From the IMG/VR virus record IMGVR_UViG_2718217859_000005: a DNA stretch of 45,085 nt; one strand, given 5' to 3'. This DNA comes from a virus. Lineage: Duplodnaviria; Heunggongvirae; Uroviricota; Caudoviricetes. Below are positions 5,572-42,343 of the stretch, piece by piece; the stretch's first letter is position 1; the number at the start of each line of letters is the position of its first letter. The notes under the pieces were generated by a model, which saw nothing but the letters and a program-made list of their open reading frames with translations, ran no database searches and had not been told where the DNA came from. The translations under genes and the position numbers were made by a program.

Positions 5572-6261
5572 CTAACCAAATCTGTTTATATTGAATGGTA
5601 CTGATGAGATCACTTTAGACTGGATATAAAGCAGAGCTAACCCCTCTTTTTCGATGCTCCATGGTTGATAATTGGGGTTATCAGATAACACCATGATTTT
5701 GCTTCCAATTTTTTGAAGTCTTTTCACGTAGCATTCTCCATCAAAACAAAATGCATAAATGCCATCGCCATCAAAATAAGTTACTGTCTTATCAAGAAAA
5801 AGAAGGTCGCCAGGTGAGATTGTGGGAGCCATACTGTCTCCTCTGGCGTTACCTATTTCTATATTTTTGAATGCCCGATTTCCAACAAGGCGTCGGGCAT
5901 ATTCAGGATCAAGTTCTATTGAGCGCACTACATCTATCAAGTCACCACGGACATGAGTTCCATCACCGCAACTAAACTCAACATCAAGGACATTAAACAC
6001 GACGCTATCTGTTCTTGTCTGGTGTTTCTCTTGCGAGGAAAAGGTTGGTGAGGAGTCTTCACCTAAGAACCAGGATTGTGGATAACCGCTAATCTCGGAT
6101 AAATGCGCGAGCTTATCACTCCGTGGAAATGTTTTTCCTGTTGTCCAGTACTGCACTGATTGCGCACTCACACCTAACTTGCGGGCCAGTTGAGCCTGAG
6201 TCCATCCTTTTGCTTTCAGCATCGCGGCTATTCGATTTTCCGTGTTTTTGACGTTCTTCAT
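5572..6261 (-). CDS. cI: CI-type prophage repressor (N-terminal XRE HTH plus C-terminal S24/LexA-like autopeptidase domain)
   Basis: N-terminal HTH (LKAKGWTQAQLARKLGVSAQSVQYW); C-terminal S24 motifs (GDSMAPT with Ser nucleophile, and ..YVKRL.. with Lys). ATG at 6261 has an AGGA RBS; the track start at 6267 is a TTG. Confidence 0.9.
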   Translation of the reverse strand: MKNVKNTENRIAAMLKAKGWTQAQLARKLGVSAQSVQYWTTGKTFPRSDKLAHLSEISGYPQSWFLGEDSSPTFSSQEKHQTRTDSVVFNVLDVEFSCGDGTHVRGDLIDVVRSIELDPEYARRLVGNRAFKNIEIGNARGDSMAPTISPGDLLFLDKTVTYFDGDGIYAFCFDGECYVKRLQKIGSKIMVLSDNPNYQPWSIEKEGLALLYIQSKVISSVPFNINRFG

Positions 6262-6394
6262 GACCAAATCCTGTGGGTTTCTTTACAAGGATAAATCTTT
6301 ACTTGATTTTAGTGTATTCGATCCTTTTGCAACTTGCATGTTAATTTAAACTTGATGTATTTTTGATTTATAAAGTTAATATTGGTGCTTTGTT
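6262..6394. promoter_or_regulatory. Divergent immunity control region (putative PRM/PR and operators)
   Basis: 133-bp AT-rich spacer between divergent cI and cro-like genes. Contains repeated ACTTGAT/TTGAT(T)T motifs (near 6301, 6351, 6364), an AAGGAT/ATCCTT inverted repeat, and a candidate rightward promoter (TTGATG..TAATAT near 6352-6378). Confidence 0.4.
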
Positions 6395-6694
6395 ATGAAA
6401 GGAAATGATTACGACAAACTTCGTGCATTAATTGCGCAAAATGCCATAGCGCGAAATCTTGGTGTGACGCCGCAAGCGGTGAATCAGTGGTTTTCAAAAA
6501 ACACAATTCCTGCTCGTTTCGTTTTACGCGTATGTGAAGTAGTTGCATGGAAGGTCACGCCACATGGCTTAAGGCCAGATCTTTATCCTCACCCTGAAGA
6601 TGGAATTCCTGATTCGTTACGCAAAATTTCAAATCCAAGCCTAGCGCGCACGGAAGATGGGCAGAGTGATTCATCAGAAATGTCCACGCGATGA
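6395..6694 (+). CDS. Cro-like HTH regulator
   Basis: 99-aa ORF divergent from cI, first gene of the rightward operon; HTH-like segment IARNLGVTPQAVNQWFSKNTIP. Confidence 0.65.
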   Translation: MKGNDYDKLRALIAQNAIARNLGVTPQAVNQWFSKNTIPARFVLRVCEVVAWKVTPHGLRPDLYPHPEDGIPDSLRKISNPSLARTEDGQSDSSEMSTR

Positions 6695-12153: not shown

Positions 12154-12396
12154 ATGACTTTTACCCCTGAACAATTACGCAAACAGGCGCAGGAAATGCT
12201 GCGACAGGCGGAACAACTGGAAAAATCAGGCGTAACAAAAGATGCCATTCGTCGGGATATGGTACCCGCGCTCAGAGAACTGATGCAGGCAAAACACCGC
12301 GCACAAAAAGCAGTGGATGAGCTGGTGGATTGTGTGGCAGAGCTGGAAACCAAAGTTGGAAAGTTTGAAAAACTAGTGCAGGAGGTACTGCGCTGA
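12154..12396 (+). CDS. Hypothetical coiled-coil protein
   Basis: Track ORF 12139..12396; the first ATG is at 12154 and a TTG at 12139 has a GGAG RBS. Highly charged helical sequence. Confidence 0.35.
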
Positions 12397-12761
12397 TGCG
12401 TGATATTCAGATGGTTCTTGAGCGTTGGGGGGCGTGGGTGGCAAATAACCACGAAGATGTTACCTGGTCGTCGATTGCTGCGGGATTCAAAGGACTGATT
12501 CCGTCAAAGGTTAAGTCACGTCCGCAATGTTGTGACGATGACGCGATGATCATTTGTGGTTGCATGGCTCGTCTGAAAAAGAACAACCGTGACTTGCATG
12601 ATCTGCTCGTGGATTATTACGTTGGGGGAATGACTTTTATGGCGCTTGCAAGGAAACATGGACGTTCAGATTGCTGGGTTGGTCGTTTGTTGCAAAAAGC
12701 AGAGGGGATCGTGGCTGGTATGTTAATGATGTTGGATGTCAAACTAGAGATGGAATATTAA
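12396..12761 (+). CDS. Q: Late-gene antiterminator Q-like protein (small Phage_antitermQ type)
   Basis: 121 aa with a Cys cluster ([12 protein letters not shown]); last gene of the early-right operon immediately before the late region; resembles the small Q proteins of E. coli cryptic lambdoid prophages as recalled. Confidence 0.6.
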
Positions 12762-12928
12762 TTTAATTCTCATAGAATTCTTTTCTTTATGAGGGGCGAA
12801 TAATGCCCCTAAACTAGAATATTATAGCTGCCTCATTATCTGGGCAGCATTAGGTTGTTGAGTGGTTTTCGCTATTAAAGCAATCATTCAAAAGGTATAA
12901 AATATGAAGCTGGGTTCTATATTAACGC

Positions 12929-14116
12929 TTACTCCATGCTAAGTGAATCCTGATAGCGCTTAAATGCCTCCGCGAAAGCTAGAGCAGCATCAGCATTTGA
13001 TACCATGTATTCTTCTGTAATGCCTGTTTGGGACTGGAAATATAACTTTCCATAAATGCAAATTGGGATTTGATAGTTATCTTTAAATCGTCGGTCTGGT
13101 GAGCCATCTTTATTTGTTTTTGCCCATGTATGCCCAGCTATGCTGGCATCACTCGGAACACCATCCTCTTCATGGAACCCTTGATGCTGCGCATTAATTT
13201 GTAATTCCCGTAAGTCAATCAGAGCAAATGCCCCATCGGGGCGAGGAATTACAGCAATACCCGGATAAAGCAATATATCGTCGCCATTGACATTTTCAAA
13301 TCGCATTGCTCTTCCAGTAAAACGAATTAGATCTGTTGAAGCGAAATCAAATACGACTGGATGACGATCAACTGCTCGTGTAGCTAACGTCCTTTCTGCA
13401 AACTGATCTATAGCTTTATCTGCGGTAATATCCCATTTTTTGATACTTGATTTTAAAATATCGAAAGCACGAATCATTGCTGCATAAGCCCGCTGTGAGG
13501 AATCGCTGGTTTCGAAATTAATGACGATTTTAGTGTTATCTTCCCAGGATACAAGACGAGATACTTCTGCTTGTATTTGTGGTAGCGTTGCTTCAAGTTC
13601 TGCAATGCGACGTTTATAAAACCATCGAAACAGGCTTGATTTACGTCGAGCCAATTCACTCTTTTGTCTTGATTCTTCTGCAAGAGCCTCTTGTAAGTCA
13701 GATGCTATTTCCGCTCTTTGTTCTCGTGCTTTAACGATCAAGTCTCGTAAAGGTAAAAGAGATGTACTTGTCAAGGCCTCTACTGAGGCACTGGAGATTT
13801 CATTCATGCCTGTTTGTGGCATGTACATTTTTGCGTTTGATGGGGTGTTGTCTGAAATTAACTCGGGTGCATCAATATGAGATTCTACAGACGACGGATT
13901 TAGCTGAATGGTTGTGGATGGTTTGTCTTTGTATGGTAAACGAGGGGATGTATACGATAAACCAGATCCTGGTAACCCTAGAGTTGCTTTAATTCCTTTT
14001 TGGTTAACATTAACTGTGGCTCCGGGGACACCAAAACTTGCGCTTACCCCATGTTTACCGATGTTAAGGCGTACTCCGGGGAAAATGGTAAAAGTTTGTC
14101 TGAAGCGAAGAGACAT
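12929..14116 (-). CDS. DUF4236-like N-terminal domain protein with central coiled coil and unknown C-terminal domain
   Basis: 395 aa; AGGGA RBS. N-terminus MSLRFRQTFTIFPGVRLNIGKHGVSASFGVPGATVNVNQKGIKATLGLPGSGLSY matches the DUF4236 pattern as I remember it; central segment is charged and helical. Convergent with Q. Confidence 0.7.
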   Translation of the reverse strand: MSLRFRQTFTIFPGVRLNIGKHGVSASFGVPGATVNVNQKGIKATLGLPGSGLSYTSPRLPYKDKPSTTIQLNPSSVESHIDAPELISDNTPSNAKMYMPQTGMNEISSASVEALTSTSLLPLRDLIVKAREQRAEIASDLQEALAEESRQKSELARRKSSLFRWFYKRRIAELEATLPQIQAEVSRLVSWEDNTKIVINFETSDSSQRAYAAMIRAFDILKSSIKKWDITADKAIDQFAERTLATRAVDRHPVVFDFASTDLIRFTGRAMRFENVNGDDILLYPGIAVIPRPDGAFALIDLRELQINAQHQGFHEEDGVPSDASIAGHTWAKTNKDGSPDRRFKDNYQIPICIYGKLYFQSQTGITEEYMVSNADAALAFAEAFKRYQDSLSME

Positions 14117-14146
14117 AAGATAATCCCTGTGTAGTAATGTCTAAAG

Positions 14147-14169
14147 TTACATTCCATACTGGAATGTAA
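14147..14169. promoter_or_regulatory. Perfect 9-bp inverted repeat (TTACATTCC-5 nt-GGAATGTAA) in the promoter/5-prime region of the DUF4236-like gene
   Basis: Seen directly, 31-53 nt upstream of the ATG at 14116, within the AT-rich divergent intergenic region 14117-14454. Confidence 0.45.
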
Positions 14170-14454
14170 TACTGCGATGAGACACGAGGCTCATTAAGGA
14201 TTTTTGCATTTTGCTGACATAAATTCTATAAAAATTATGGTGATAAACGTTTTACAATCGTAAAAAAACAAATATGCTGTTAAGAGTGGTACTACGCCAC
14301 ACAGCTTAAACCTGCCGTCGAGCGGTTTTTTTGTACCTGTAAACCTAGTGCAGTACAGTAAACTCGCTGGTGGTTGTGAATACTGACTTTTTATCTTGCT
14401 GGCTTTTTAGACAAGAGTTATTGGTATGTCATGTTAACCAGAAGGGAAAAAGAC

Positions 14455-14652
14455 ATGCTAAAACAGCAGGATATGACCGAAACCGCCAGAGTGGTGTTTA
14501 ATGAATTAAGCGTCACCGAACCGGCGACCGTCGGGGAAATTGCGCAGAATACTTACCTTTCACGCGAACGCTGCCAGTTAATACTGACTCAGCTTGTTAT
14601 GGCGGGTCTGGCAGATTATCAGTTCGGTTGTTACAGACGTCTTCCGCAGTGA
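14455..14652 (+). CDS. Small winged-helix regulator, PapI/FaeA-like
   Basis: ATG at 14455 with an AAGGGA RBS (track ORF starts at 14431). About 66 aa; pattern ...ATVGEIAQNTYLSRERCQLILTQLVMAGL... resembles PapI-family regulators. Confidence 0.45.
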   Translation: MLKQQDMTETARVVFNELSVTEPATVGEIAQNTYLSRERCQLILTQLVMAGLADYQFGCYRRLPQ

Positions 14653-14788
14653 AGGCTTTTTAATTCGTGGTAATGGGCGGCTGGTGGGTGTTAGCGGCAC
14701 CTGTCAGTCATTTGCTTATGTGTTGATGAGAATTTACTTTTTGGGGCTATAATTAAGCTAACCAATTGCTAATTAAAGTAAAATTATA

Positions 14789-15502
14789 ATGGATGTTGTC
14801 TGTTCAGTTATCATGGTTTGCTCCCCAATTAATATTTTTCTTGAAAAGGATACGTTGTCACTTAAGCCCGGCTCAGTCGTTCTGGCCACCAAATGCATCA
14901 GGGAGCTTTTCCTTATGCATTATGGCAAAGTAAAAATTGTCGATATAAGCCATTCTATAGTAAGTCAATATCTGGAAAGCCAGCATAAGCTGACAAGAGG
15001 TCCTCTGACTGACATTCCACTTTACTTGTTGCTGGACCCCAACAATCCTGCGCTGGCTGCAGCTTTAATTACCAGCCAGAGATTTTCCGGAGAGACCACG
15101 GATATGTTTCTTATGATGGCCTGCCTGTCGCTGTTTGAATCAGATGAACGGATGTCATTATTTTTAAGTGGATGTGTATCCAGTATAAGTGTCAAAGTCA
15201 GAGCGATTATTCAAACAGATATATCATCAAGCTGGACGCTTGGTGCGATTGCTCTACAGTTGCATATGAGTGAGAGCTTGTTAAAGAAAAAACTCAAGGA
15301 TGAAGGTCTCAGGTTCAGTAATTTGTTACTTGAGGAACGGATGCGGGTTGCTGTAAATATGTTATGTTCCCGACATGGATATGGACAGGCTGTAGCAGAA
15401 AAATGCGGTTATTCAAGTAGGTCCTACTTTATCTCTGTATTTCACCGCTATTATGGCTTCCCGCCAGACAGATATGTATCTATGCAAGGGCTTGATTTTT
15501 GA
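14789..15502 (+). CDS. AraC-family transcriptional regulator (Rns/AggR-like size and layout)
   Basis: C-terminal AraC-type double HTH (LGAIALQLHMSESLLKKKLKDEG... and ...VAEKCGYSSRSYFISVFHRYYGFPPDRY); AT-rich gene; true start may be an internal Met. Confidence 0.75.
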   Translation: MDVVCSVIMVCSPINIFLEKDTLSLKPGSVVLATKCIRELFLMHYGKVKIVDISHSIVSQYLESQHKLTRGPLTDIPLYLLLDPNNPALAAALITSQRFSGETTDMFLMMACLSLFESDERMSLFLSGCVSSISVKVRAIIQTDISSSWTLGAIALQLHMSESLLKKKLKDEGLRFSNLLLEERMRVAVNMLCSRHGYGQAVAEKCGYSSRSYFISVFHRYYGFPPDRYVSMQGLDF

Positions 15503-15528
15503 TTTCATCTGATTATTATTTTCGGCCC

Positions 15529-15604
15529 GGCCCTTTAGCTCAGTGGTGAGAGCGAGCGACTCATAATCGCCAGGTCGCTGGTTCAAATCCAGCAAGGGCC
15601 ACCA
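15529..15604 (+). tRNA. tRNA with CAU anticodon (Ile2/lysidine-type or Met), ileX-like
   Basis: 76 nt; 7-bp acceptor stem GGCCCTT/AAGGGCC, anticodon loop CTCATAA, T-loop TTCAAAT, encoded CCA. Closely resembles E. coli ileX as recalled. Confidence 0.85.
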
Positions 15605-15605
15605 A

Positions 15606-15682
15606 CCGCCACTAGCTCATCAGGAAAGAGAGTCAACCCTTTAAGTTGAGAGTGCGAGGTTCGAGTCTCCGGTGGCGGTCCA
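15606..15682 (+). tRNA. Degenerate tRNA-like element (possible pseudo-tRNA; anticodon-loop CCTTTAA)
   Basis: Perfect acceptor stem (CCGCCAC/GTGGCGG) and anticodon stem (TCAAC/GTTGA), but a mismatch in the D-stem and in the T-stem, and C instead of U at position 33. Confidence 0.4.
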
Positions 15683-15684
15683 GT

Positions 15685-15760
<76 letters not shown>

Positions 15761-15763
15761 TAT

Positions 15764-15838
<75 letters not shown>

Positions 15839-16106
15839 GCAGAGGACGATACTAGGTTGTTTTTGGGCACTGACACTTTATGTGGGGCGTTTTTACCTGA
15901 CTCCTTACCGCGTCCTGTTCTGTAATGAATGCTATTTATTACGGTACCAGTGCTATTTTTTTACAATAGTGGAATGGTGCATTACCGGTGGAGATTTTGT
16001 ATTTCCTGGCAGGGTCGGTGATGCATCATTCCGATGTTGTAAGCATCGCTCAGAATAACGTTGAGATTAATCGCGTACTAAGCAAAACCTGGAAATACAT
16101 CCTTAA

Positions 16107-16130
16107 CCGCCGCACCAGGCGGTTTTTTTT
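16107..16130 (+). terminator. Rho-independent terminator
   Basis: Hairpin CCGCC-GCACCA-GGCGG followed by an 8-T run. Confidence 0.55.
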
Positions 16131-16305
16131 ATTCATTTTTTTCATGGCTCGCTACGGCGGGCCTTTTTCATATCCGCGCCACGCCCGGCGCACATCAAAA
16201 ACCACAGAGCCTTTCAGGGGTGAGCTTACGGGATGGTCAGTGTGACTTTCTCTGTGGGCTGGTCACCCCCGGGCGGAGGCTCACCCACTAAAAGGAAAAG
16301 TCACG

Positions 16306-16731
16306 ATGTTTGGTATTTTCAAAAAGAAAACCCGCAAGGCCATTACCGAAGTGAAGAAGATGGAGAACCGCGACGCAGTGGAGGCGACCGTCTGGGGTGC
16401 GTATTCCATTGCATATGCTGACGGCACCTGTGACGCGAAAGAAATCGCGGTACTGGAGAAAACCATTGCAGCACTTCCTGCCTTTGCGCCGTTCTCGGGT
16501 GAGATTGCACAAATGAGTGCAAATATCCGCGCCCGTTATGAAGCATCGCCGCGTTCTGCCAATGCCGAAGCCCTCCGCCAGCTGGCTGATATTGCAGGTA
16601 CTGATGACGCAGTTAATGTGCTGTGCCTGTGTCTGGATATCGCTGACCAGGATGGTATTGGTCCGGATGAAGAAGCACAGCTCAAGAAAATTGCTCAGGC
16701 GCTGCAGCTACCACTGGAGCAGTACCTGTGA
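16306..16731 (+). CDS. TerB-like domain protein
   Basis: 141 aa; AAGGA RBS. All-helical pattern aligning by eye with TerB (VEATVWGAYSIAYADGTCDAKEIAVLEK...; ...VLCLCLDIADQDGIGPDEEAQLKKIAQAL). Confidence 0.65.
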   Translation: MFGIFKKKTRKAITEVKKMENRDAVEATVWGAYSIAYADGTCDAKEIAVLEKTIAALPAFAPFSGEIAQMSANIRARYEASPRSANAEALRQLADIAGTDDAVNVLCLCLDIADQDGIGPDEEAQLKKIAQALQLPLEQYL

Positions 16732-16892
16732 AAAGTGCGCGCCTTGTGCTGGCTGCCATCCTGCTGTTTCTGGTAGTGGCAGTGGATTTCACCGGACGGC
16801 TGATGTCGGTACTGGCAGATGGTGTGCTGGTGGCGGGGATGGTGATAATGGTGTTGCCTTTGCTGAAGAGTGTAAAAAATACACAGACGTGA
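16728..16892 (+). CDS. Small hydrophobic protein (54 aa, GTG start overlapping the TerB-like stop)
   Basis: ORF found by eye (V/MKSARLVLAAILLFLVVAVDFTGRLMSVLADGVLVAGMVIMVLPLLKSVKNTQT); two predicted TM segments. Confidence 0.3.
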   Translation: MKSARLVLAAILLFLVVAVDFTGRLMSVLADGVLVAGMVIMVLPLLKSVKNTQT

Positions 16893-17086
16893 AATGTTAA
16901 ATCCATCACAATTAAGTTGATTGGGCATTGCTGGTTGACGGAGCTTTTGTTAGAAAAAATTTGCATGGTGGATCCCCCCGGGTGGTGGGCATATGAGTGA
17001 TGTATGTTTCTGTTCTGCTCCTTTATTATGCTGATTCGGGTACTGATACTGAATTCATCGGGAGGCACCCGGCACCATGCAAGCAT

Positions 17087-17109
17087 GCCCCTCTCCTGAG
17101 GGGCTTTTT
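17087..17109 (+). terminator. Rho-independent terminator
   Basis: Hairpin GCCCCTC-TCCT-GAGGGGC followed by TTTTTA. Confidence 0.5.
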
Positions 17110-17153
17110 ATATAAACAGGTTCTACAGATTCTATCAGACATGCGTAAACTTA

Positions 17154-17489
17154 TTATGGCCTGTGTCGTTTTAGTCCGTAGGGGCATATTTGCAGAATGC
17201 AACGGTTATTAAAGCATTCATTAAATACGTTATCTGAATTTGCAGGGCATTCCTGGCTGTTTTTGATTAAATCCCAGAATCTTTTATTGAATGGTACAAC
17301 GTTGTAAATGGTTACAGGTAGCACTTTGTTATTGAGTACGATACCTGTGTGAGTCAGCGTAAATATACTTTCAGGAGGTAAGAAAACATCCGATTGATAC
17401 CAGATTATTAATTTTATTTTACTCCATATGGCTGAAAAAGATATTCCACATGATGGCTGGATAACTGTGTCAATCACAATCCACTTCAT
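17154..17489 (-). CDS. Hypothetical Cys-rich protein (111 aa)
   Basis: Track ORF with a good AAGGA RBS 7 nt upstream of the ATG at 17489; AT-rich; Cys-rich C-terminus ([27 protein letters not shown]). Confidence 0.35.
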
Positions 17490-17661
17490 TTAGTTTCCTT
17501 ATTTATGCCTTGCTGGTGATGTTCTGAAAAGTATAAATGATAATTTTGAATGTAAACCATAGAGCAGAATTATTTTTCTGATGTATGAGGTATCAGGACC
17601 ATCAGTAATTAACGGGTGGCTTTTTTATTGTTGTCAGCTTCCGGATAACGGGAGACGGGGT

Positions 17662-17877
17662 ATGTACCAGATGGAAAAAATCACAACAGGTGTGTCATAC
17701 ACCACGTCAGCGGTGGGGACGGGATACTGGTTACTGCAGCTGCTGGACAAAGTCTCTCCGTCCCAGTGGGTGGCAATAGGCGTGCTGGGGAGTCTGCTGT
17801 TTGGTCTGCTGACGTACCTGACGAACCTGTATTTCAAAATTAAAGAAGACCGGCGTAAGGCGGCGCGGGGAGAGTAG
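17662..17877 (+). CDS. S: Class II holin, phage 21 S-type (pinholin), with dual-start motif MYQM
   Basis: 71 aa from the ATG at 17662 (GGGAGACGGGG RBS). Strong resemblance to S21 as recalled (..[34 protein letters not shown]). Confidence 0.8.
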
Positions 17878-17880
17878 ACG

Positions 17881-18522
17881 ATGAACCATGAAGAAATGAA
17901 TCAGCGCATAAGTTGCCTGGAAAATGAAATCACTGAACTGAATAAAAAACTGTCGGTGCTGATGGTTTCTGAAGATGAAAAAAAACGCCGCGATGAGCAG
18001 GAAGCAGCGTTTTACGATGATTGCATCAAAATTGCTCGCAGGACCTTTGAGAAGATTTTGCAGGAAAAGTTTTTACCGACCGCATTGTCAGAAAAGTACT
18101 CCATTACAGTTAAAAGTGCCGGAGAGGAAGGCAATAAACGTTATTTTATTGCGTCTGCACCGGATAAAGACCAGGAATGGGGGGATAATCGGCCATCTTT
18201 TATTGTGACAAGCGATGACTGGAATATCACGATCCGTGAAGATGGAAAAGTAACACCAGCATCGCACCAGCACAGTGAGGCGCTCATTGAATTTGCCATT
18301 GATTACCTGAAGAACAATAAAAAGCAGGGACTAATGAAGCGCATTGGTCGTTGCATGGGATATCTGCAGGTAGCTGCTGAGATTGAAGCGCTGGCCAGTG
18401 GTGCGGACAAGGATGCAGTTGTGCGGGAGGCTCTTCTTCGTGATTTTGATAATCCGCCCTTTAAAAAAGTGCCGGCTTACTGGTTTCATCCAGGACTGAC
18501 TTATCTTAAAGGACGTATATAA
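17881..18522 (+). CDS. Hypothetical protein (213 aa) with N-terminal coiled coil, inserted between holin and endolysin
   Basis: Starts 4 nt after the holin stop with a GGGAGAG RBS; N-terminal heptad-like helix (MNHEEMNQRISCLENEITELNKKLSVL...); no lysozyme motifs. Confidence 0.6.
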   Translation: MNHEEMNQRISCLENEITELNKKLSVLMVSEDEKKRRDEQEAAFYDDCIKIARRTFEKILQEKFLPTALSEKYSITVKSAGEEGNKRYFIASAPDKDQEWGDNRPSFIVTSDDWNITIREDGKVTPASHQHSEALIEFAIDYLKNNKKQGLMKRIGRCMGYLQVAAEIEALASGADKDAVVREALLRDFDNPPFKKVPAYWFHPGLTYLKGRI

Positions 18523-20702: not shown

Positions 20703-20908
20703 GCGACCTTATTATCCATGCGCGGTATTGTCGCCGTATTTCCGCATTAACAGAGACCGCAGCCCGACAGGGAGACTCCTCTGCGCGAGTGTGCGGGGAT
20801 AATCAAAAACGATACACACCGGGGTTTACTGCGTTAACGGAGCGCGGCGTTGTCCCCTCATAGTCGCCTGGCCGGTGCGATGGTGGAAGAAACCGGAAAT
20901 TTATTCAA

Positions 20909-30292: not shown

Positions 30293-30826
30293 ATGGCGAT
30301 AAAAGGGCTTGATCAGGCGATTGAAAATCTGAGCCGGGTTCGTAAAAACGCCATTCCGGCGGCTTCAGCAATGGCCATTAACCGCGTGGCCACAACGGCG
30401 ATTAATCAGTCTTCGTCACAGGTTGCCCGGGAGACCAGGGTGAGCCGGAAACTGGTAAAGGAACGGTCCAGACTGAAACGGGCCACGGTCAGAAATCCGA
30501 ATGCCAAAATTATCGTTAAACGCGGTGATCTCCCGGTGATTAAGCTGGGGATCAGGATGCTGGGCCGTCGTCCGAACAGCATACTCAAAGCCGGTCAGCA
30601 TCGTTATCAGCGGGCATTTATTCAGCGATTAAAAAATGGTCGCTGGCATGTAATGCAGCGTGTGGCCGGGAAAAACCGTTACCCCATTGATGTGGTGAAA
30701 ATCCCGATGGCGGCCCCACTGAAACAGGCGTTTGATGAAAACGTTGACCGTATCCGGCGTGAACGCCTGCCCGGAGAACTGGCATATGCGCTGAAACAAC
30801 AACTGAGGATTGCGATAAAACGATGA
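30293..30826 (+). CDS. Z: Tail completion protein (lambda gpZ-like)
   Basis: 177 aa; ..NGRWHVMQRVAGKNRYPIDVVKIPMA.. matches gpZ as recalled. Confidence 0.85.
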   Translation: MAIKGLDQAIENLSRVRKNAIPAASAMAINRVATTAINQSSSQVARETRVSRKLVKERSRLKRATVRNPNAKIIVKRGDLPVIKLGIRMLGRRPNSILKAGQHRYQRAFIQRLKNGRWHVMQRVAGKNRYPIDVVKIPMAAPLKQAFDENVDRIRRERLPGELAYALKQQLRIAIKR

Positions 30827-31218
30827 AACATACTGATATCCGTGCTGCAGTGCTGGATGCACTGGAGCAGCATGAACACGGGGCGACGCTGTTTGATGGT
30901 CGCCCCGTTGTTTTTGACGAAGAGGATTTTCCCGCGGTCGCGGTTTATCTGACGGATGCAGAGTATACCGGTGAAGAGCTGGATGCAGATACCTGGCGGG
31001 CCACACTGCATATTGAGGTGTTTTTACCGGCACAGGTACCGGATTCAGAGCTTGATCAGTGGATGGAAAGCCGGATTTACCCGGCGATGGCGGCGATCCC
31101 TGCACTGGCAGGCATGATTACCACGATGGTTACGCAGGGCTATGACTATCGTCGTGATGACGATATGGCATTGTGGAGTTCTGCAGATCTGACTTATTCC
31201 ATTACATACGAGATGTGA
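30823..31218 (+). CDS. U: Tail terminator protein (lambda gpU-like)
   Basis: 131 aa; ..[48 protein letters not shown].. matches gpU as recalled. Confidence 0.85.
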
Positions 31219-31225
31219 GGACGAT

Positions 31226-31897
31226 ATGGCAACACCAAATCCCCTGGCGCCGGTAAAAGGTGCCGGTACCACACTGTGGGTTTACACCGGCACGGGTGAT
31301 GCTTATGCAAACCCGTTGTCAGACGATGACTGGCAGCGACTGGCTAAGGTGAAGGATCTGACACCCGGCGAGATGACGGCAGAATCCTACGATGATAACT
31401 ACCTGGATGATGAAGACGCGGACTGGACCGCGACCGGGCAGGGACAGAAATCTGCGGGTGATACCAGTTTTACGCTGGCCTGGAAACCGGGAGAGGAAGG
31501 CCAGAAAGGGCTTATAGGCTGGTTTGAAAGCGGCGATGTCCGGGCCTATAAAATCCGTTTTCCGAATGGCACGGTGGATGTGTTTCGTGGCTGGGTCAGC
31601 AGTATCGGTAAGGCCGTGACGGCGAAAGAAGTGATCACCCGAACAGTGAAAGTTACCAACGTGGGCAAACCCTCCGTGGCGGAAGAACGCAGCGAAATTA
31701 CGCCGGTCACTGCAATTAAGGTGACGCCGACATCCGGTACCGTGGAAAAAGGGAAAGCAACCACCCTGACTGTTTCTTTTGAGCCGGAAAGTGCAACCGA
31801 CAAGACGTTCAGAGCGGTTTCCGCCGATCCGTCAACGGGAACCATTGCTGTGAAAGATATGGTGATCACTGTGACGGGGTTAAGGCTGGAAAAGTGA
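31226..31897 (+). CDS. V: Major tail protein (lambda gpV-like); C-terminal Ig-like domain interrupted by a frame disruption
   Basis: Strong similarity to gpV over residues 1-215. The ORF then ends prematurely (..[10 protein letters not shown]), while the expected C-terminus ([29 protein letters not shown]) is encoded in another frame through 31977. Confidence 0.85.
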
Positions 31898-31990
31898 GTA
31901 TCCCCGTGATTTCCGGTAATGGTCAGTTTGCCACGGTAGCTGAAGTCACCGTTACTGAAGCGGGCGCTGCAGGGTAAACGGAGGTTATAC

Positions 31991-32422
31991 ATGTTTCTGA
32001 AAACAGAACAATTTGAATATAACGGTGTGTCCGTCACGCTTTCTGAACTGTCTGCGCTGCAGCGTATCGAGCATCTTGCCCTCCTGAAACGGCGGGCAGA
32101 AGAGTCTGAAGCCAGCGGCAACCTGCAGGTGAGCGTGGAAGACATTGTCAGAACCGGGGCGTTTCTGGTGGCGATGTCCCTGTGGCATAACCATCCGCAG
32201 AAAACGGAGTCACCGTCAATGAATGAGGCTGTGATGCAGATTGAGCAGGAAGTCCTGACCACCTGGCCTGCTGATGCCATTGCCCGGGCGGAAGACGTGG
32301 TGTTGCATCTGTCCGGGATGAGTGAGCCTGTTCATGTGGATACGGATATCACCGAAGTGGCGAAAAATAATGCGCTTACTGATGATGATTTTTCTGCGGG
32401 AAAGTCTTCGACGGCGAGCTGA
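31991..32422 (+). CDS. G: Tail assembly chaperone (lambda gpG-like)
   Basis: 143 aa; strong similarity to gpG as recalled; ends after the slippery sequence GGGAAAG (32398-32404). Confidence 0.85.
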   Translation: MFLKTEQFEYNGVSVTLSELSALQRIEHLALLKRRAEESEASGNLQVSVEDIVRTGAFLVAMSLWHNHPQKTESPSMNEAVMQIEQEVLTTWPADAIARAEDVVLHLSGMSEPVHVDTDITEVAKNNALTDDDFSAGKSSTAS

Positions 32423-32861
32423 ATTTTGCCCTCAGACTGGCGCGTGAGATGGGGAGGCCTGACTGGCGCGCCATGCTTGCCGGGATGACATCCACCGAAT
32501 ATGCCGACTGGCACCGTTTTTACCGCACGCATTATTTTCACGATACCCAACTGGATATGCATTTTTCCGGGTTGACGTACACCGTACTCAGCCTGTTTTT
32601 TTGCGATCCGGATATGTATCCCTCGGACTTCAGTCTGCTTGCCCCCGGCGTGAGGAAGAGCAGACGGAAATGCCGGATGAGGAAAAAATGCTGATGCAGA
32701 AAGCGGCAGGACTTGCCGGAGGCATCCGGTTTGGTGGGGAAGGAGGGGGCGATATTTCACCTTCTGCGGATGTGGTGGATGTCAGTGAGGATGATGTCGC
32801 ATTAATGATGGCTTCAGCGGGGATTCCTGGAGGTGTGAGATATGTCCCAGCCGGTTGGTGA
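32398..32861 (+). CDS. T: T segment of the G-T tail assembly chaperone (reached by -1 programmed frameshift at GGGAAAG); carries a second, non-programmed frame disruption
   Basis: The -1 frame after the slippery site encodes gpT-like sequence (..GRPDWRAMLAGMTSTEYADWHRFY..HFSGLTYTVLSLFF..). At the C5 run at 32641-32648 the gpT-like sequence switches to a third frame (..REEEQTEMPDEEKMLMQKAAGLAGG..GGVRY..) that ends at 32861 overlapping the H start. Confidence 0.55.
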
Positions 32862-35421
32862 TCTTGTTATTGACCTGAGTCTGGATGCGGTCCGTTTCGA
32901 TGAGCAGATAAGCCGGGTAAGGCGTCATTTTTCAGGACTGGATACCGACGCCAGAAAAACCGCCAGTGCTGTTGAACAGGGCCTGAGCCGTCAGGCGCTG
33001 GCTGCACAAAAAGCCGGGATTTCCGTCGGGCAGTATAAAGCGGCCATGCGTACCCTGCCTGCACAGTTTACGGATATCGCCACGCAGCTTGCCGGTGGTC
33101 AGAATCCCTGGCTGATCCTGCTGCAACAGGGCGGTCAGGTGAAGGACGCCTTCGGCGGGATGATCCCCATGTTCAGGGGGCTTGCCGGTGCGATCACCCT
33201 GCCGATGGTCGGGGTCACCTCGCTGGCGGTGGCGACAGGTGCGCTGGCGTATGCCTGGTACCAGGGGGATTCCACGCTTTCAGCGTTTAATAAAACCCTG
33301 GTTCTTTCCGGTAATCAGTCCGGACTGACTGCCGATCGCATGCTGACGCTCTCCAGAGCCGGACAGGCAGCAGGGCTGACGTTTAACCAGGCGAGCGAGT
33401 CACTGGCAGCCCTGGTGAATGCCGGTGTGCGTGGTGGTGAACAGTTTGATGCCATCAACCAGAGTGTGGCGCGTTTTGCTTCTGCATCCGGTGTGGAAGT
33501 GGACAAGGTTGCAGAGGCTTTTGGAAAGCTGACCACCGACCCGACGTCGGGACTGATGGCTATGGCGCGCCAGTTCCGTAACGTGACGGCAGAGCAGATT
33601 GCGTATGTTGCGCAGCTGCAGCGTTCGGGGGATGAGGCAGGGGCCTTACAGGCGGCGAACGATATCGCCACAAAAGGCTTTGATGAGCAGACCCGTCGCC
33701 TGAAAGAAAACATGGGGACGCTGGAAACCTGGGCGGATAAAACCGGGAAGGCATTCAAATTGATGTGGGATGCCATCCTGGATATCGGTCGTCCTGAATC
33801 CTCAGCGGATATGCTCGCCAGTGCGCAGAAGGCATTTGATGAGGCGGATAAAAAATGGCAGTGGTACCAGAGCCGGAGTCAGCGCCGGGGAAAGACCTCC
33901 TCTTTCCGTGCCAACCTTCAGGGTGCATGGGATGACCGTGAAAATGCCCGTCTGGGGCTGGCGGCAGCCACGCTGCAGTCGGATATGGAAAAAGCCGGTG
34001 AACTGGTGGCAAGGGACCGGGCTGAGCGTGAGGCGTCACAGCTGAAGTATACCGGAGAGGCGCAGAAGGCGTATGAGCGCCTGCTGACGCCACTGGAGAA
34101 ATATACTGACCGGCAGGAAGAGCTGAATAATGCCCTGAAAGACGGGAAAATCCTGCAGGCGGATTACAACACGCTGATGGCGGCGGCGAAAAAGGATTAT
34201 GAATCGACGCTGAAAAAACCGAAGTCGTCAGGTGTCAAAGTGTCAGCCGGGGAGCGTCAGGAAGACCGGGCGCATGCAGCCCTGCTGACGCTTCAGGCAG
34301 AACTCCGGACGCTGGAGAAGCATGCCGGAGCGAATGAGAAAATCAGCCAGCAGCGCCGGGATTTGTGGAAGGCGGAGAGTCAGTTCGCGGTACTGGAGGA
34401 GGCGGCGCAACGTCGCCAGCTGTCTGTACAGGAGAAATCCCTGCTGGCGCATAAAGACGAGACGCTGGAGTACAAACGCCAGCTGGCTGCACTTGGTGAC
34501 AAGGTTACGTATCAGGGGCGCCTGAACACGCTGGCGCAGCAGGCGGATAAATTCGCACAGCAGCAACGGGCAAAACGGGCCGCCATTGATGCGAAAAGCC
34601 GGGGGCTGACTGACCGGCAGGCAGAACGGGAAGCCACGGAACAGCGCCTGAAGGAACAGTATGGCGATAATCCTCTGGCGCTGAATAACGTCATGTCAGA
34701 GCAGAAAAAGACCTGGGCGGCTGAAGACCTGCTTCGCGGGAGCTGGATGGCAGGCCTCAGGTCCGGCTGGAGCGAGTGGAAAGAGAGCGCCACGGACAGT
34801 ATGTCGCAGGTTAAAAGTGCTGCCACGCAGACCTTTGATGGTATTGCACAGAATATGGCGGCGATGCTGACCGGCAGTGAACAGAACTGGCGCAGCTTCA
34901 CCCGTTCCGTGCTGTCCATGATGACAGAAATTCTGCTTAAGCAGGCAATGGTGGGGATTGTCGGGAGTATCGGCAGCGCCATTGGCGGGGCTGTTGGTGG
35001 CGGCGCATCCGCGTCAGGCGGTACAGCCATTCAGGCCGCTGCGGCGAAATTCCATTTTGCGACCGGGGGATTTACGGGAACCGGCGGCAAATACGAGCCT
35101 GCGGGGATTGTTCACCGCGGGGAGTTTGTCTTCACGAAGGAGGCAACCAGCCGGATTGGTGTCGGTAACCTGTACCGCCTGATGCATGGCTATGCGGAAG
35201 GTGGTTATGTGGGTGGTGCCGGAATTCCGGCGCAGATGCGGCGGGTGGAAGGCATTAATTTTAATCAGAACAATCACGTGGTGATTCAGAACGACGGTAT
35301 CAACGGACAGGCGGGGCCGCAGATGCTGAAGGCTGTGTATGACATGGCCCGTAAGGGGGCGCAGGATGAGCTCCGGCTGCAGTTACGTGATGGCGGTATG
35401 TTATCAGGGAGCGGGCGATGA
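32842..35421 (+). CDS. H: Tape measure protein (lambda gpH-like)
   Basis: 859 aa; near-colinear similarity to lambda H as recalled over most of its length. Confidence 0.9.
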   Translation: MSQPVGDLVIDLSLDAVRFDEQISRVRRHFSGLDTDARKTASAVEQGLSRQALAAQKAGISVGQYKAAMRTLPAQFTDIATQLAGGQNPWLILLQQGGQVKDAFGGMIPMFRGLAGAITLPMVGVTSLAVATGALAYAWYQGDSTLSAFNKTLVLSGNQSGLTADRMLTLSRAGQAAGLTFNQASESLAALVNAGVRGGEQFDAINQSVARFASASGVEVDKVAEAFGKLTTDPTSGLMAMARQFRNVTAEQIAYVAQLQRSGDEAGALQAANDIATKGFDEQTRRLKENMGTLETWADKTGKAFKLMWDAILDIGRPESSADMLASAQKAFDEADKKWQWYQSRSQRRGKTSSFRANLQGAWDDRENARLGLAAATLQSDMEKAGELVARDRAEREASQLKYTGEAQKAYERLLTPLEKYTDRQEELNNALKDGKILQADYNTLMAAAKKDYESTLKKPKSSGVKVSAGERQEDRAHAALLTLQAELRTLEKHAGANEKISQQRRDLWKAESQFAVLEEAAQRRQLSVQEKSLLAHKDETLEYKRQLAALGDKVTYQGRLNTLAQQADKFAQQQRAKRAAIDAKSRGLTDRQAEREATEQRLKEQYGDNPLALNNVMSEQKKTWAAEDLLRGSWMAGLRSGWSEWKESATDSMSQVKSAATQTFDGIAQNMAAMLTGSEQNWRSFTRSVLSMMTEILLKQAMVGIVGSIGSAIGGAVGGGASASGGTAIQAAAAKFHFATGGFTGTGGKYEPAGIVHRGEFVFTKEATSRIGVGNLYRLMHGYAEGGYVGGAGIPAQMRRVEGINFNQNNHVVIQNDGINGQAGPQMLKAVYDMARKGAQDELRLQLRDGGMLSGSGR

Positions 35422-41743: not shown

Positions 41744-42343
41744 ATGCGTAAATTATGTGCTGTTATTCTGTCTGCAGTAGTCTGGCTGGTCGCCGCTGGT
41801 ACGCCAGCGAGTGCAGCAGAGCATCAGTCCACACTAAGCGGCGGGTATCTTCAGTCCCATACTGATATGCCCGGAAACGATGACCTGAAGGGCATTAACG
41901 TGAAATACCGTTATGAATTTACGGACACGCTGGGGCTGATTACGTCATTCAGTTATGCCAACGCTGAAGATGAGCAAAAAACGCATTACAGCGATACCCG
42001 CTGGCATGAAGATTCCGTGCGTAACCGCTGGTTCAGCGTGATGGCGGGGCCGTCTGTGCGCGTGAATGAATGGTTCAGCGCGTATGCGATGGCGGGTATG
42101 GCTTACAGCCGTGTTTCGACTTTCTCCGGAGATTATATCCGCGTAACTGACAACAAGGGGAAAAAGCACGATGTGCTGACCGGAAGTGATGACGGTCGCC
42201 ACAGCAACACGTCTCTGGCGTGGGGGGCTGGCGTGCAGTTTAACCCGACCGAATCCGTGGCCATTGATATTGCTTATGAAGGCTCCGGCAGTGGTGACTG
42301 GCGCACTGACGGTTTCATCGTGGGTGTCGGTTATAAATTCTGA
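41744..42343 (+). CDS. lom: Lom/Ail-family outer-membrane beta-barrel protein (moron)
   Basis: Signal peptide; C-terminus identical to the lambda Lom ending as recalled (..[25 protein letters not shown]). Confidence 0.85.

What the first reader, a model, noticed from the sequence alone, without database searches (positions are those of the whole stretch)
31860..31977. Frame disruption near the C-terminus of major tail protein V
The V ORF ends at 31897 (..[10 protein letters not shown]), but the sequence expected for the gpV C-terminus (..[33 protein letters not shown]) is encoded in another frame from about 31873 to 31977. A single missing base around GTGACGGGG (31871-31879) would restore one continuous reading frame. 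Either this is a sequencing indel at a G run, or a genuine mutation truncating the C-terminal Ig-like domain, which in lambda is dispensable for tail assembly.
Basis: seen in the sequence. Interest (0 to 1): 0.5.

Follow-up and report, generated by a model that had tools for sequence, protein, structure and literature searches.

The report
One-base gap in tail-tube gene V
The lambda-like major tail gene V of this E. coli prophage is split by one missing G in a run of Gs, and a second missing C splits tail gene T 766 bases downstream. Both gaps occur only in this record and are most likely long-read assembly errors, or otherwise ordinary prophage decay.

Summary
The V reading frame (31226-31897, 223 aa) ends ...[10 protein letters not shown], and the normal C-terminus is encoded in the -1 frame up to 31977. 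The cause is a G4 run (31876-31879) where every relative examined has G5 and an intact 250-aa lambda gpV orthologue.

C6 has become C5 at 32642-32646, which splits tail-assembly gene T.

Both alleles are private to this record. They are absent from 5,426 complete E. coli genomes, three contig collections and a 15-billion protein set. The rest of the prophage is almost identical to its kin: 0 private substitutions in the 25.4-kb late region and 2 in the early region.

Draft contigs of kin show no private indel. Long contiguous assemblies of the same prophage carry their own single-base indels. In kin genomes V and T lie inside exact repeats of 1.8-3.8 kb, where short-read polishing fails.

Best reading, about 60%: homopolymer consensus errors, and V is really intact. 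Main rival, about 37%: genuine slipped-strand deletions. In that case the T defect, not the V truncation, would abolish tail assembly. A programmed frameshift is not supported. Only reads or resequencing can decide. Interest is low.

The parts
30823..31218 (+). Gene U (tail terminator, 131 aa), intact in the window
   Evidence: ORF. The exact protein is widespread (PF06141). In the OkiPb017xx genomes this gene is annotated as frameshifted through a 1-nt deletion opposite window position 31185.
31226..31897 (+). Gene V as read: 223-aa product made of 218 native residues plus LRLEK. The tube domain is intact and the Big_2 Ig-like domain is cut.
   Evidence: Pfam PF16461 covers residues 18-152 in full. 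PF02368 Big_2 matches only profile positions 1-57 of 79. The intact relative matches lambda gpV (6p3e) at E=3e-123.
31876..31879 (+). G4 homopolymer, the site of the missing base (G5 in all relatives)
   Evidence: Alignments. G5 is present in L001, L002, L003, L005, L006, L009, L013 and L021.
31873..31977 (+). Remainder of V in the -1 frame (native residues 219-250 and the stop codon)
   Evidence: It is identical to residues 217-250 of the intact 250-aa protein and matches relatives 100% at the DNA level.
31991..32422 (+). Gene G (tail assembly chaperone, 143 aa), intact
   Evidence: Pfam PF06894, E=7e-50.
32398..32404 (+). Canonical G-T programmed -1 slippery heptamer G GGA AAG, intact
   Evidence: Read from the sequence. 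The frame arithmetic links the G frame to the T frame. The motif is as described for lambda and TP901-1.
32449..32694 (+). Gene T as read: 81-aa ORF made of 66 native residues plus 15 aberrant ones
   Evidence: The intact T is 137 aa. PF06223 matches only profile positions 1-49 of 73.
32642..32646 (+). C5 homopolymer, the site of the second missing base (C6 in all relatives)
   Evidence: The allele is absent from IMG/VR.
32643..32861 (+). Remainder of T in the other frame (PRREEEQTEM...VPAGW*)
   Evidence: The ORF 32601-32861 carries the native C-terminal half of T (compare).
32842..35421 (+). Gene H (tape measure, 859 aa), intact. It completes the lambda order U-V-G-T-H.
   Evidence: Annotation of the identical gene in L003.

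Best explanation
The frame break is a one-base under-call of a G5 run (read as G4) in the consensus of a long-read-based assembly. The C6 to C5 contraction in gene T, 766 bp downstream, is a second error of the same kind. In the real DNA, V is most likely an intact 250-aa orthologue of lambda gpV (tube domain plus C-terminal Big_2 Ig-like domain), and T is an intact 137-aa frame reached by the normal G-T -1 frameshift. The errors would have survived because V-G-T sits in a segment that is duplicated almost exactly between lambdoid prophages of the same genome, and short-read polishing cannot correct such segments. Shown here: the missing bases, their privacy to this record, and the near-identity of everything else. 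Inferred: the sequencing technology and the repeat status in the source genome.
For: 1. All eight relatives inspected at this site have G5, and the seven that also cover T have C6; only the window has G4/C5.
2. The alleles are private. No 100% match exists in 5,426 complete E. coli genomes; all 18 hits at 99% or better span 766 nt against the 765-nt query. The G4 pattern has 0 hits in viral, metagenome and genome contig collections, and the C5 pattern has 0 hits in viral contigs. The truncated 223-aa and 81-aa products are absent from about 15 billion proteins, while the intact 250-aa V is found on 683 contigs.
3. The window is otherwise the lineage consensus. Against OkiPb01701 there are 5 differences in 25.4 kb. 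At 20758, 31185 and 42108 the window holds the ancestral or widespread state. Drafts L011, L012, L015, L016 and L017 are 100.000% identical over 4.8-10.2 kb, and L013 equals the window plus G5, C6 and one SNP of its own. Window-private changes over about 42 kb are 2 transitions and 2 G/C-homopolymer deletions. Base substitutions outnumber indels 4- to 23-fold in bacterial mutation-accumulation studies (PMC6330053). By my own binomial estimate, 2 or more indels among 4 changes then has a probability of about 0.01-0.18.
4. There is an internal control. About 66 kb of near-identical short draft contigs contain no private indel. Long contiguous assemblies of the same prophage each carry private 1-nt indels: GB089 portal, RM9088 tail fibre, OkiPb U, MFDS1022581 several, and the GenBank-only L009, L025 and L026 many, several of them at GATC, CCWGG or homopolymers.
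5. Drafts of kin break at about 17.6 kb and 34.9-35.1 kb. Both deletions lie between these points. In GB089 two prophage copies share exact runs of 3,807 nt (covering V) and 1,799 nt (covering T).
6. Residual errors of long-read bacterial assemblies are mostly homopolymer indels, and they persist in repeats after short-read polishing (PMC8812927).
Against: No reads are available and the source and its sequencing technology are unknown, so the argument is circumstantial.
- The error density (2 in 45 kb, with none of the roughly 100 A/T runs of 5 or more in the late region affected) is low for raw nanopore assemblies and high for well-polished ones.
- Real mutations also favour deletions in G/C runs.
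- The window does carry 2 private substitutions, so its lineage has diverged for real.
- Eight OkiPb assemblies share one identical U frameshift (equal scores). That is either a real mutation, which would show that real tail-gene frameshifts occur in this lineage, or a systematic error.
- Defective lambdoid prophages are common in such strains (general knowledge).
Confidence: 0.6

Rival explanations
1. These are genuine slipped-strand -1 deletions in a resident prophage, that is, recent pseudogenisation. V would yield a 223-aa protein with an intact tube domain and a broken Ig-like domain. gpGT would lose the C-terminal half of its T domain, which is the part that recruits gpV to the tape measure. 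Tail assembly would fail and the prophage could not make infectious particles.
For: The bases are missing from the record as given. Homopolymers are the natural hotspots for indels, with a bias towards deletions and G/C runs (PMC6330053). Kin prophages carry their own disruptions, and at least one cannot be a base-calling error: the IS66 insertion in the RM9088 protease gene. One U frameshift is reproduced in 8 assemblies. The window has 2 private substitutions, so there was time for real change.
Against: Two indels against two substitutions is unusual for natural mutation (about 0.01-0.18 by my estimate from the ratios). There is no decay downstream of either frameshift (0 private substitutions in 25.4 kb). 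The alleles appear in no other assembly or protein set. Both sites lie in the segment where assemblies of kin genomes are least reliable.
Confidence: 0.37
2. The frameshifts are functional or compensated. Ribosomes would slip -1 on the G run (P-site tRNA-Gly re-pairing from GGG at 31877-31879 to GGG at 31876-31878), giving a mixture of short V and full-length V. This would resemble phages that add an Ig-like domain to a fraction of their tail or capsid subunits by programmed frameshifting.
For: A -1 slip on the run would regenerate exactly the wild-type sequence ...TVTGVKAGK... (frame arithmetic). Low-level compensatory frameshifting on G runs is documented elsewhere, for example the herpesvirus TK G7 run (PMC5009743). 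The true programmed G-T site lies only 0.5 kb away.
Against: The arrangement occurs in this one record only, whereas the exact in-frame 250-aa V protein is encoded on 683 contigs. There is no X XXY YYZ heptamer. The downstream 81 nt fold no better than shuffled sequence (z = -1.06). There is no Rfam match. The break lies inside the Big_2 domain rather than at a domain boundary, so the short product would carry an incomplete domain.
Confidence: 0.02

Closest known systems
Bacteriophage lambda major tail (tube) protein gpV (PDB 6p3e, 2k4q, 2l04)
   Same: With the frame restored, the 250-aa protein aligns end to end with lambda gpV (E=3e-123). It has the same architecture, PF16461 tube domain plus C-terminal Big_2 Ig-like domain, and the same gene order U-V-G-T-H.
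   Different: As written in this record the protein stops after residue 218 plus 5 aberrant residues. It loses the last 32 residues, about the last quarter of the Ig-like domain.
Lambda gpV mutants lacking the C-terminal domain (work cited in PMC8718954)
   Same: The truncation affects only the non-tube Ig-like domain. In lambda, removing that domain still allows tail formation.
   Different: In lambda the loss costs about 100-fold in activity. Here only part of the domain is removed, which may leave an unfolded remnant. That effect was not tested.
Lambda tail assembly chaperones gpG and gpGT with the programmed -1 frameshift
   Same: G (PF06894), T (PF06223) and the slippery G GGA AAG heptamer are all present in the lambda arrangement.
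   Different: The T frame is interrupted at codon 66 by the C6 to C5 contraction. That is not part of the programmed system.
Residual homopolymer-length errors in long-read bacterial assemblies (Polypolish paper, PMC8812927)
   Same: Both changes are single-base deletions in homopolymers that cause apparent frameshifts, and they lie in a region that is a long exact repeat in kin genomes.
   Different: The technology used for this record is unknown, and only two such events are seen in 45 kb.
Programmed frameshifts that append Ig-like domains to phage structural proteins (for example SPP1 gp17.1*; recalled from the literature listed in PMC8718954, not tested here)
   Same: An Ig-like C-terminal extension of a major tail protein lies in another reading frame.
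   Different: Those sites are conserved and lie at domain boundaries. This one is private to one record and lies inside the domain.

Membership tests
Lambda gpV-type major tail tube protein | N-terminal tail tube domain (Pfam PF16461 Phage_TTP_12) | tested here: met
   Residues 18-152 match profile positions 1-135 of 135, E=2e-70.
Lambda gpV-type major tail tube protein | Complete C-terminal Big_2 Ig-like domain in the same reading frame | tested here: not met
   As read, only profile positions 1-57 of 79 are in frame. The domain is complete (1-79) once one G is restored, as in the relatives.
Lambda gpV-type major tail tube protein | Full-length sequence similarity to lambda gpV and synteny U-V-G-T-H | tested here: met
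   E=3e-123 to 6p3e over residues 1-245. Gene order.
Programmed -1 ribosomal frameshift site | Slippery heptamer X XXY YYZ at the shift point | tested here: not met
   The sequence at the shift is ACG GGG TTA. Only single-tRNA re-pairing on GGGG is possible.
Programmed -1 ribosomal frameshift site | The out-of-frame arrangement is conserved among relatives | tested here: not met
   Every relative inspected is in frame. The split products are absent from the protein collection.
Programmed -1 ribosomal frameshift site | Downstream stimulatory RNA structure | tested here: not met
   The minimum free energy is -20.3 kcal/mol against a shuffle mean of -17.1 (z = -1.06). No Rfam family matches.
Long-read homopolymer consensus error | Single-base length change inside a homopolymer, typically a deletion | tested here: met
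   G5 to G4 and C6 to C5.
Long-read homopolymer consensus error | Private to one assembly, with surrounding sequence otherwise identical to kin | tested here: met
Long-read homopolymer consensus error | Located in an intragenomic repeat that short reads cannot polish | tested here: inconclusive
   This holds in kin genomes: exact repeats of 3.8 and 1.8 kb in GB089, and draft contigs that break around this segment. The window's own genome is not available.
Long-read homopolymer consensus error | Reads or independent resequencing contradict the consensus | not testable with these tools
   No read data are available and the source record was not identified.
Decaying (pseudogenised) prophage gene | Further degenerative changes, or the lesion shared by clonal relatives | tested here: not met
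   There are no private substitutions in the 25.4-kb late region, and no other assembly shares the lesions. A very recent event is not excluded.

The most novel reading that the evidence does not exclude
Both deletions are real and not independent. A single burst of -1 frameshift mutagenesis at G/C runs would have hit V and its assembly partner, the T domain of gpGT, within 766 bp. Such a burst could come from an SOS-induced error-prone polymerase acting on the prophage during an abortive induction. The result would be a tail-less prophage in which only rare -1 ribosomal slippage on the shortened runs gives traces of full-length protein. The link to SOS polymerases rests on my own recollection of the literature and was not tested.
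Probability: 0.03. Interest if true: 0.3.

Novelty: not a real feature. Interest (0 to 1): 0.07.

Why it matters
The finding matters mainly for annotation. If the two contractions are assembly errors, the prophage has a complete lambda-type morphogenetic module and should be scored as potentially inducible, with V and T annotated as intact genes rather than pseudogenes. If they are real, the prophage is tail-defective because of T, not V, and is one more example of early prophage inactivation. Neither outcome changes what is known about lambda-like tails. The case also shows that a frameshift in one gene should be judged against the whole element: the second contraction and the private-indel pattern across assemblies carry most of the information.

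Tried and rejected
- I searched for the G4 allele in IMG/VR, metagenome and GTDB genome contigs and found 0 hits in each. The C5 allele has 0 hits in IMG/VR.
- Exact look-up of the truncated V and T products found neither, so the source assembly could not be identified and its technology remains unknown.
- I considered a programmed or compensatory frameshift and rejected it: no heptamer, no structure, no Rfam match, and no conservation.
- I considered that the window-versus-OkiPb substitutions might be window-private, but polarisation showed the window holds the ancestral or widespread state.
- I tried to read Xu, Hendrix and Duda 2014 (PMC3907469) on gpGT; it is not held. I used PMC5009743 and PMC4493119 instead.
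- I could not obtain the V/T alleles of the closest early-region relative (GCA_038936475.1, L032), because its contig ends at window position 17597 and look-ups cannot be restricted to one sample.

Full report
**1. Observation**

The ORF at 31226-31897 encodes 223 aa ending [10 protein letters not shown]. The frame starting at 31873 encodes [34 protein letters not shown] and ends at 31977.

A megablast of 31226-31990 against 5,426 complete E. coli genomes gave no identical hit. The 18 records at 99% identity or better all span 766 nt against the 765-nt query. Alignment with two of them places the single gap in the G run: ACGGGGTT in the window (G4, 31876-31879) against ACGGGGGTT. The relatives' gene encodes a 250-aa protein whose last 34 residues are exactly the out-of-frame peptide of the window.

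**2. What the gene is**

The intact protein is an orthologue of lambda gpV. It matches PDB 6p3e at E=3e-123 over residues 1-245, and the C-terminal-domain structure 2l04 aligns to residues 160-245.

Pfam finds the tail tube domain PF16461 (18-152) and a Big_2 Ig-like domain (160-241). In the window's 223-aa product the tube domain is complete, but Big_2 stops at profile position 57 of 79.

The neighbours follow the lambda order:
- U at 30823-31218.
- G at 31991-32422 (PF06894).
- The canonical slippery heptamer G GGA AAG at 32398-32404.
- T, then the tape measure gene H at 32842-35421.

The window as a whole is a lambdoid prophage. Its first base is the end of an integrase gene that in relatives abuts yecE.

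**3.

Window 19701-45085 differs from the prophage of strain OkiPb01701 at only five positions in 25.4 kb:

| Window position | Difference |
|---|---|
| 20758 | Substitution |
| 31185 | The window has an A that OkiPb lacks; OkiPb's U gene is annotated as frameshifted |
| 31876-31879 | Missing G in V |
| 32642-32646 | Missing C: C5 in the window, C6 in OkiPb |
| 42108 | Substitution |

The missing C interrupts T after codon 66 of 137. The window has an 81-aa ORF (32449-32694), and the native C-terminal half continues in another frame to 32861. PF06223 is cut at profile position 49 of 73.

All other relatives that cover these sites have G5 and C6: L001, L005, L006, L009, L013 and L021.

**4. Privacy of the alleles**

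- The G4 pattern has no exact match in IMG/VR, the metagenome collection or the GTDB species genomes.
- The C5 pattern has none in IMG/VR.
- The 223-aa and 81-aa products are absent from a collection of about 15 billion proteins, while the intact 250-aa V is present on 683 contigs.
- That collection uses its own gene calls even for frameshifted genes. It lists a 208-aa V for L009. The source assembly is therefore simply not in it.

**5. What else is private to the window**

Outgroups show that at 20758 and 31185 the window has the ancestral state. The window's Lom variant at 42108 is the widespread one, found in 57 blocks of the collection.

Five draft contigs from different assemblies are 100.000% identical to the window over 4.8-10.2 kb downstream of mid-H. 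L013, the one draft that reaches V and T, equals the window plus G5, C6 and one substitution of its own.

For the early region, draft L032 differs at 3 positions and 0 gaps in 16.8 kb. Two of these are window-private transitions: 6362 (intergenic) and 12375 (synonymous).

The window's private changes over about 42 kb are therefore two substitutions and two single-base deletions, both in G/C homopolymers of length 5 or 6.

**6. Weighing error against real mutation**

In bacterial mutation-accumulation studies, base substitutions outnumber small indels 4- to 23-fold. Indels concentrate in simple repeats and show a deletion bias (PMC6330053). By my own binomial estimate, two or more indels among four changes then has a probability of roughly 0.01-0.18. 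The context of the deletions fits both hypotheses, but their proportion favours error.

Long-read bacterial assemblies are known to retain mostly homopolymer indels that create false frameshifts, and these persist in repeats after short-read polishing (PMC8812927).

- About 66 kb of near-identical short draft contigs contain no private indel. Long contiguous assemblies of the same prophage each have private 1-nt indels. GB089 has one in the portal gene, RM9088 in the tail fibre gene, OkiPb in U and MFDS1022581 in several genes. The GenBank-only long contigs L009, L025 and L026 are riddled with them, several at GATC, CCWGG or homopolymers.
- Drafts of kin break at about 17.6 kb and 34.9-35.1 kb of the window. 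This marks the intervening segment, which holds both deletions, as multi-copy. A 45-kb uninterrupted window most likely comes from a long-read-based assembly (inference).
- In GB089 the two prophage copies share exact runs of 3,807 nt covering V and 1,799 nt covering T. Both are far longer than short-read inserts.

Several points count against error.
- No reads are available.
- None of the roughly 100 A/T runs of 5 or more in the late region is affected.
- The lineage has real private substitutions.
- Eight OkiPb assemblies share one U frameshift, which may be real.
- RM9088 has an IS66 insertion in its protease gene, which is certainly real. Tail and head gene inactivation therefore does happen in this prophage family.

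I put error at about 0.60 and real mutation at about 0.37.

**7. Consequences if the changes are real**

The V product would keep the tube domain. In lambda, removing the C-terminal domain still allows tails to form but lowers biological activity about 100-fold (PMC8718954). Here only the last quarter of the domain is lost, with untested effects on folding.

The T lesion is more serious. gpG and gpGT are essential, the G part binds the tape measure, and the T domain binds and recruits gpV (PMC5009743; PMC4493119). A real T frameshift would therefore block tail assembly whatever the state of V.

**8. Programmed or compensatory frameshifting**

A -1 slip of tRNA-Gly on the G run would regenerate the wild-type sequence (frame arithmetic). 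Compensatory slippage on G runs is known elsewhere.

The evidence is against it here.
- There is no X XXY YYZ heptamer.
- The downstream fold is unremarkable (z = -1.06).
- There is no Rfam match.
- The break lies inside the domain.
- The arrangement exists in no other sequence.

I give this about 0.02.

**9. Verdict**

Failing that, it is ordinary recent prophage decay. Nothing here is new biology, and the interest is low. Only reads or resequencing can settle the question.

Noticed in passing
window 32642-32646 (gene T, 32449-32861): There is a second private homopolymer contraction (C6 to C5), 766 bp downstream of the finding. It frameshifts the T part of the essential gpGT tail assembly chaperone.
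   Followed up: yes
L003 11484 (opposite window 31185), NZ_AP042598.1 and seven sister OkiPb017xx genomes: The neighbouring gene U is annotated as 'frameshifted' in eight RefSeq complete genomes because of a 1-nt deletion (GCAGATC to GCGATC) next to a Dam site. The window has the intact form. This is either a real clonal mutation or a systematic base-calling error.
   Followed up: partly
L009 (GCA_047261955.1), L025 and L026 (GCA_047262225.1): GenBank-only megabase contigs carrying the same prophage family are full of 1-nt indels. V is cut to 208 aa by a deletion in CCGATCC, J is split in three, and the terminase, portal and L genes are split. Several indels lie at GATC or CCWGG motifs and homopolymers, which points to unpolished long-read assemblies.
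   Followed up: partly
window 6362: A window-private C to T change, creating a T5 run, lies in the intergenic region between the divergent repressor-like gene (5572-6267, minus strand) and the cro-like gene (6395-6694). That is where operators and promoters would lie. Its effect is unknown.
   Followed up: no
window 15529-15838: ARAGORN calls four tRNA genes: Met-CAT, Lys-TTT, Thr-TGT and Gly-TCC. The RefSeq annotation of near-identical relatives lists three (Ile, Thr, Gly) and nothing at the Lys-TTT position. L032 has its own SNP opposite window position 15603, at the 3' end of the first tRNA.
   Followed up: no
window 1 and 45085: The window begins exactly at the end of the integrase CDS, which in relatives overlaps the 3' end of yecE, and ends exactly at the stop codon of the DUF4376 gene. 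It looks like a prophage cut out at gene boundaries, without host flanks.
   Followed up: partly
window 12396-17900: The region between the Q antiterminator and the holin carries a DUF4236 gene, an AraC-type regulator, the tRNA cluster, TerB-like and DUF3927 genes and iraM, but no Shiga toxin genes. The yecE site is a usual site for Stx phages (the last point is from general knowledge).
   Followed up: partly
L005 6722-10934 (RM9088) and L006 5140-6731 (GB089): Kin prophages have their own lesions. RM9088 has an IS66-family element inserted in the S49 protease/scaffold gene, plus a truncated J and a frameshifted tail fibre gene. GB089 has a 1-nt deletion (GGG to GG) in the portal gene.
   Followed up: partly
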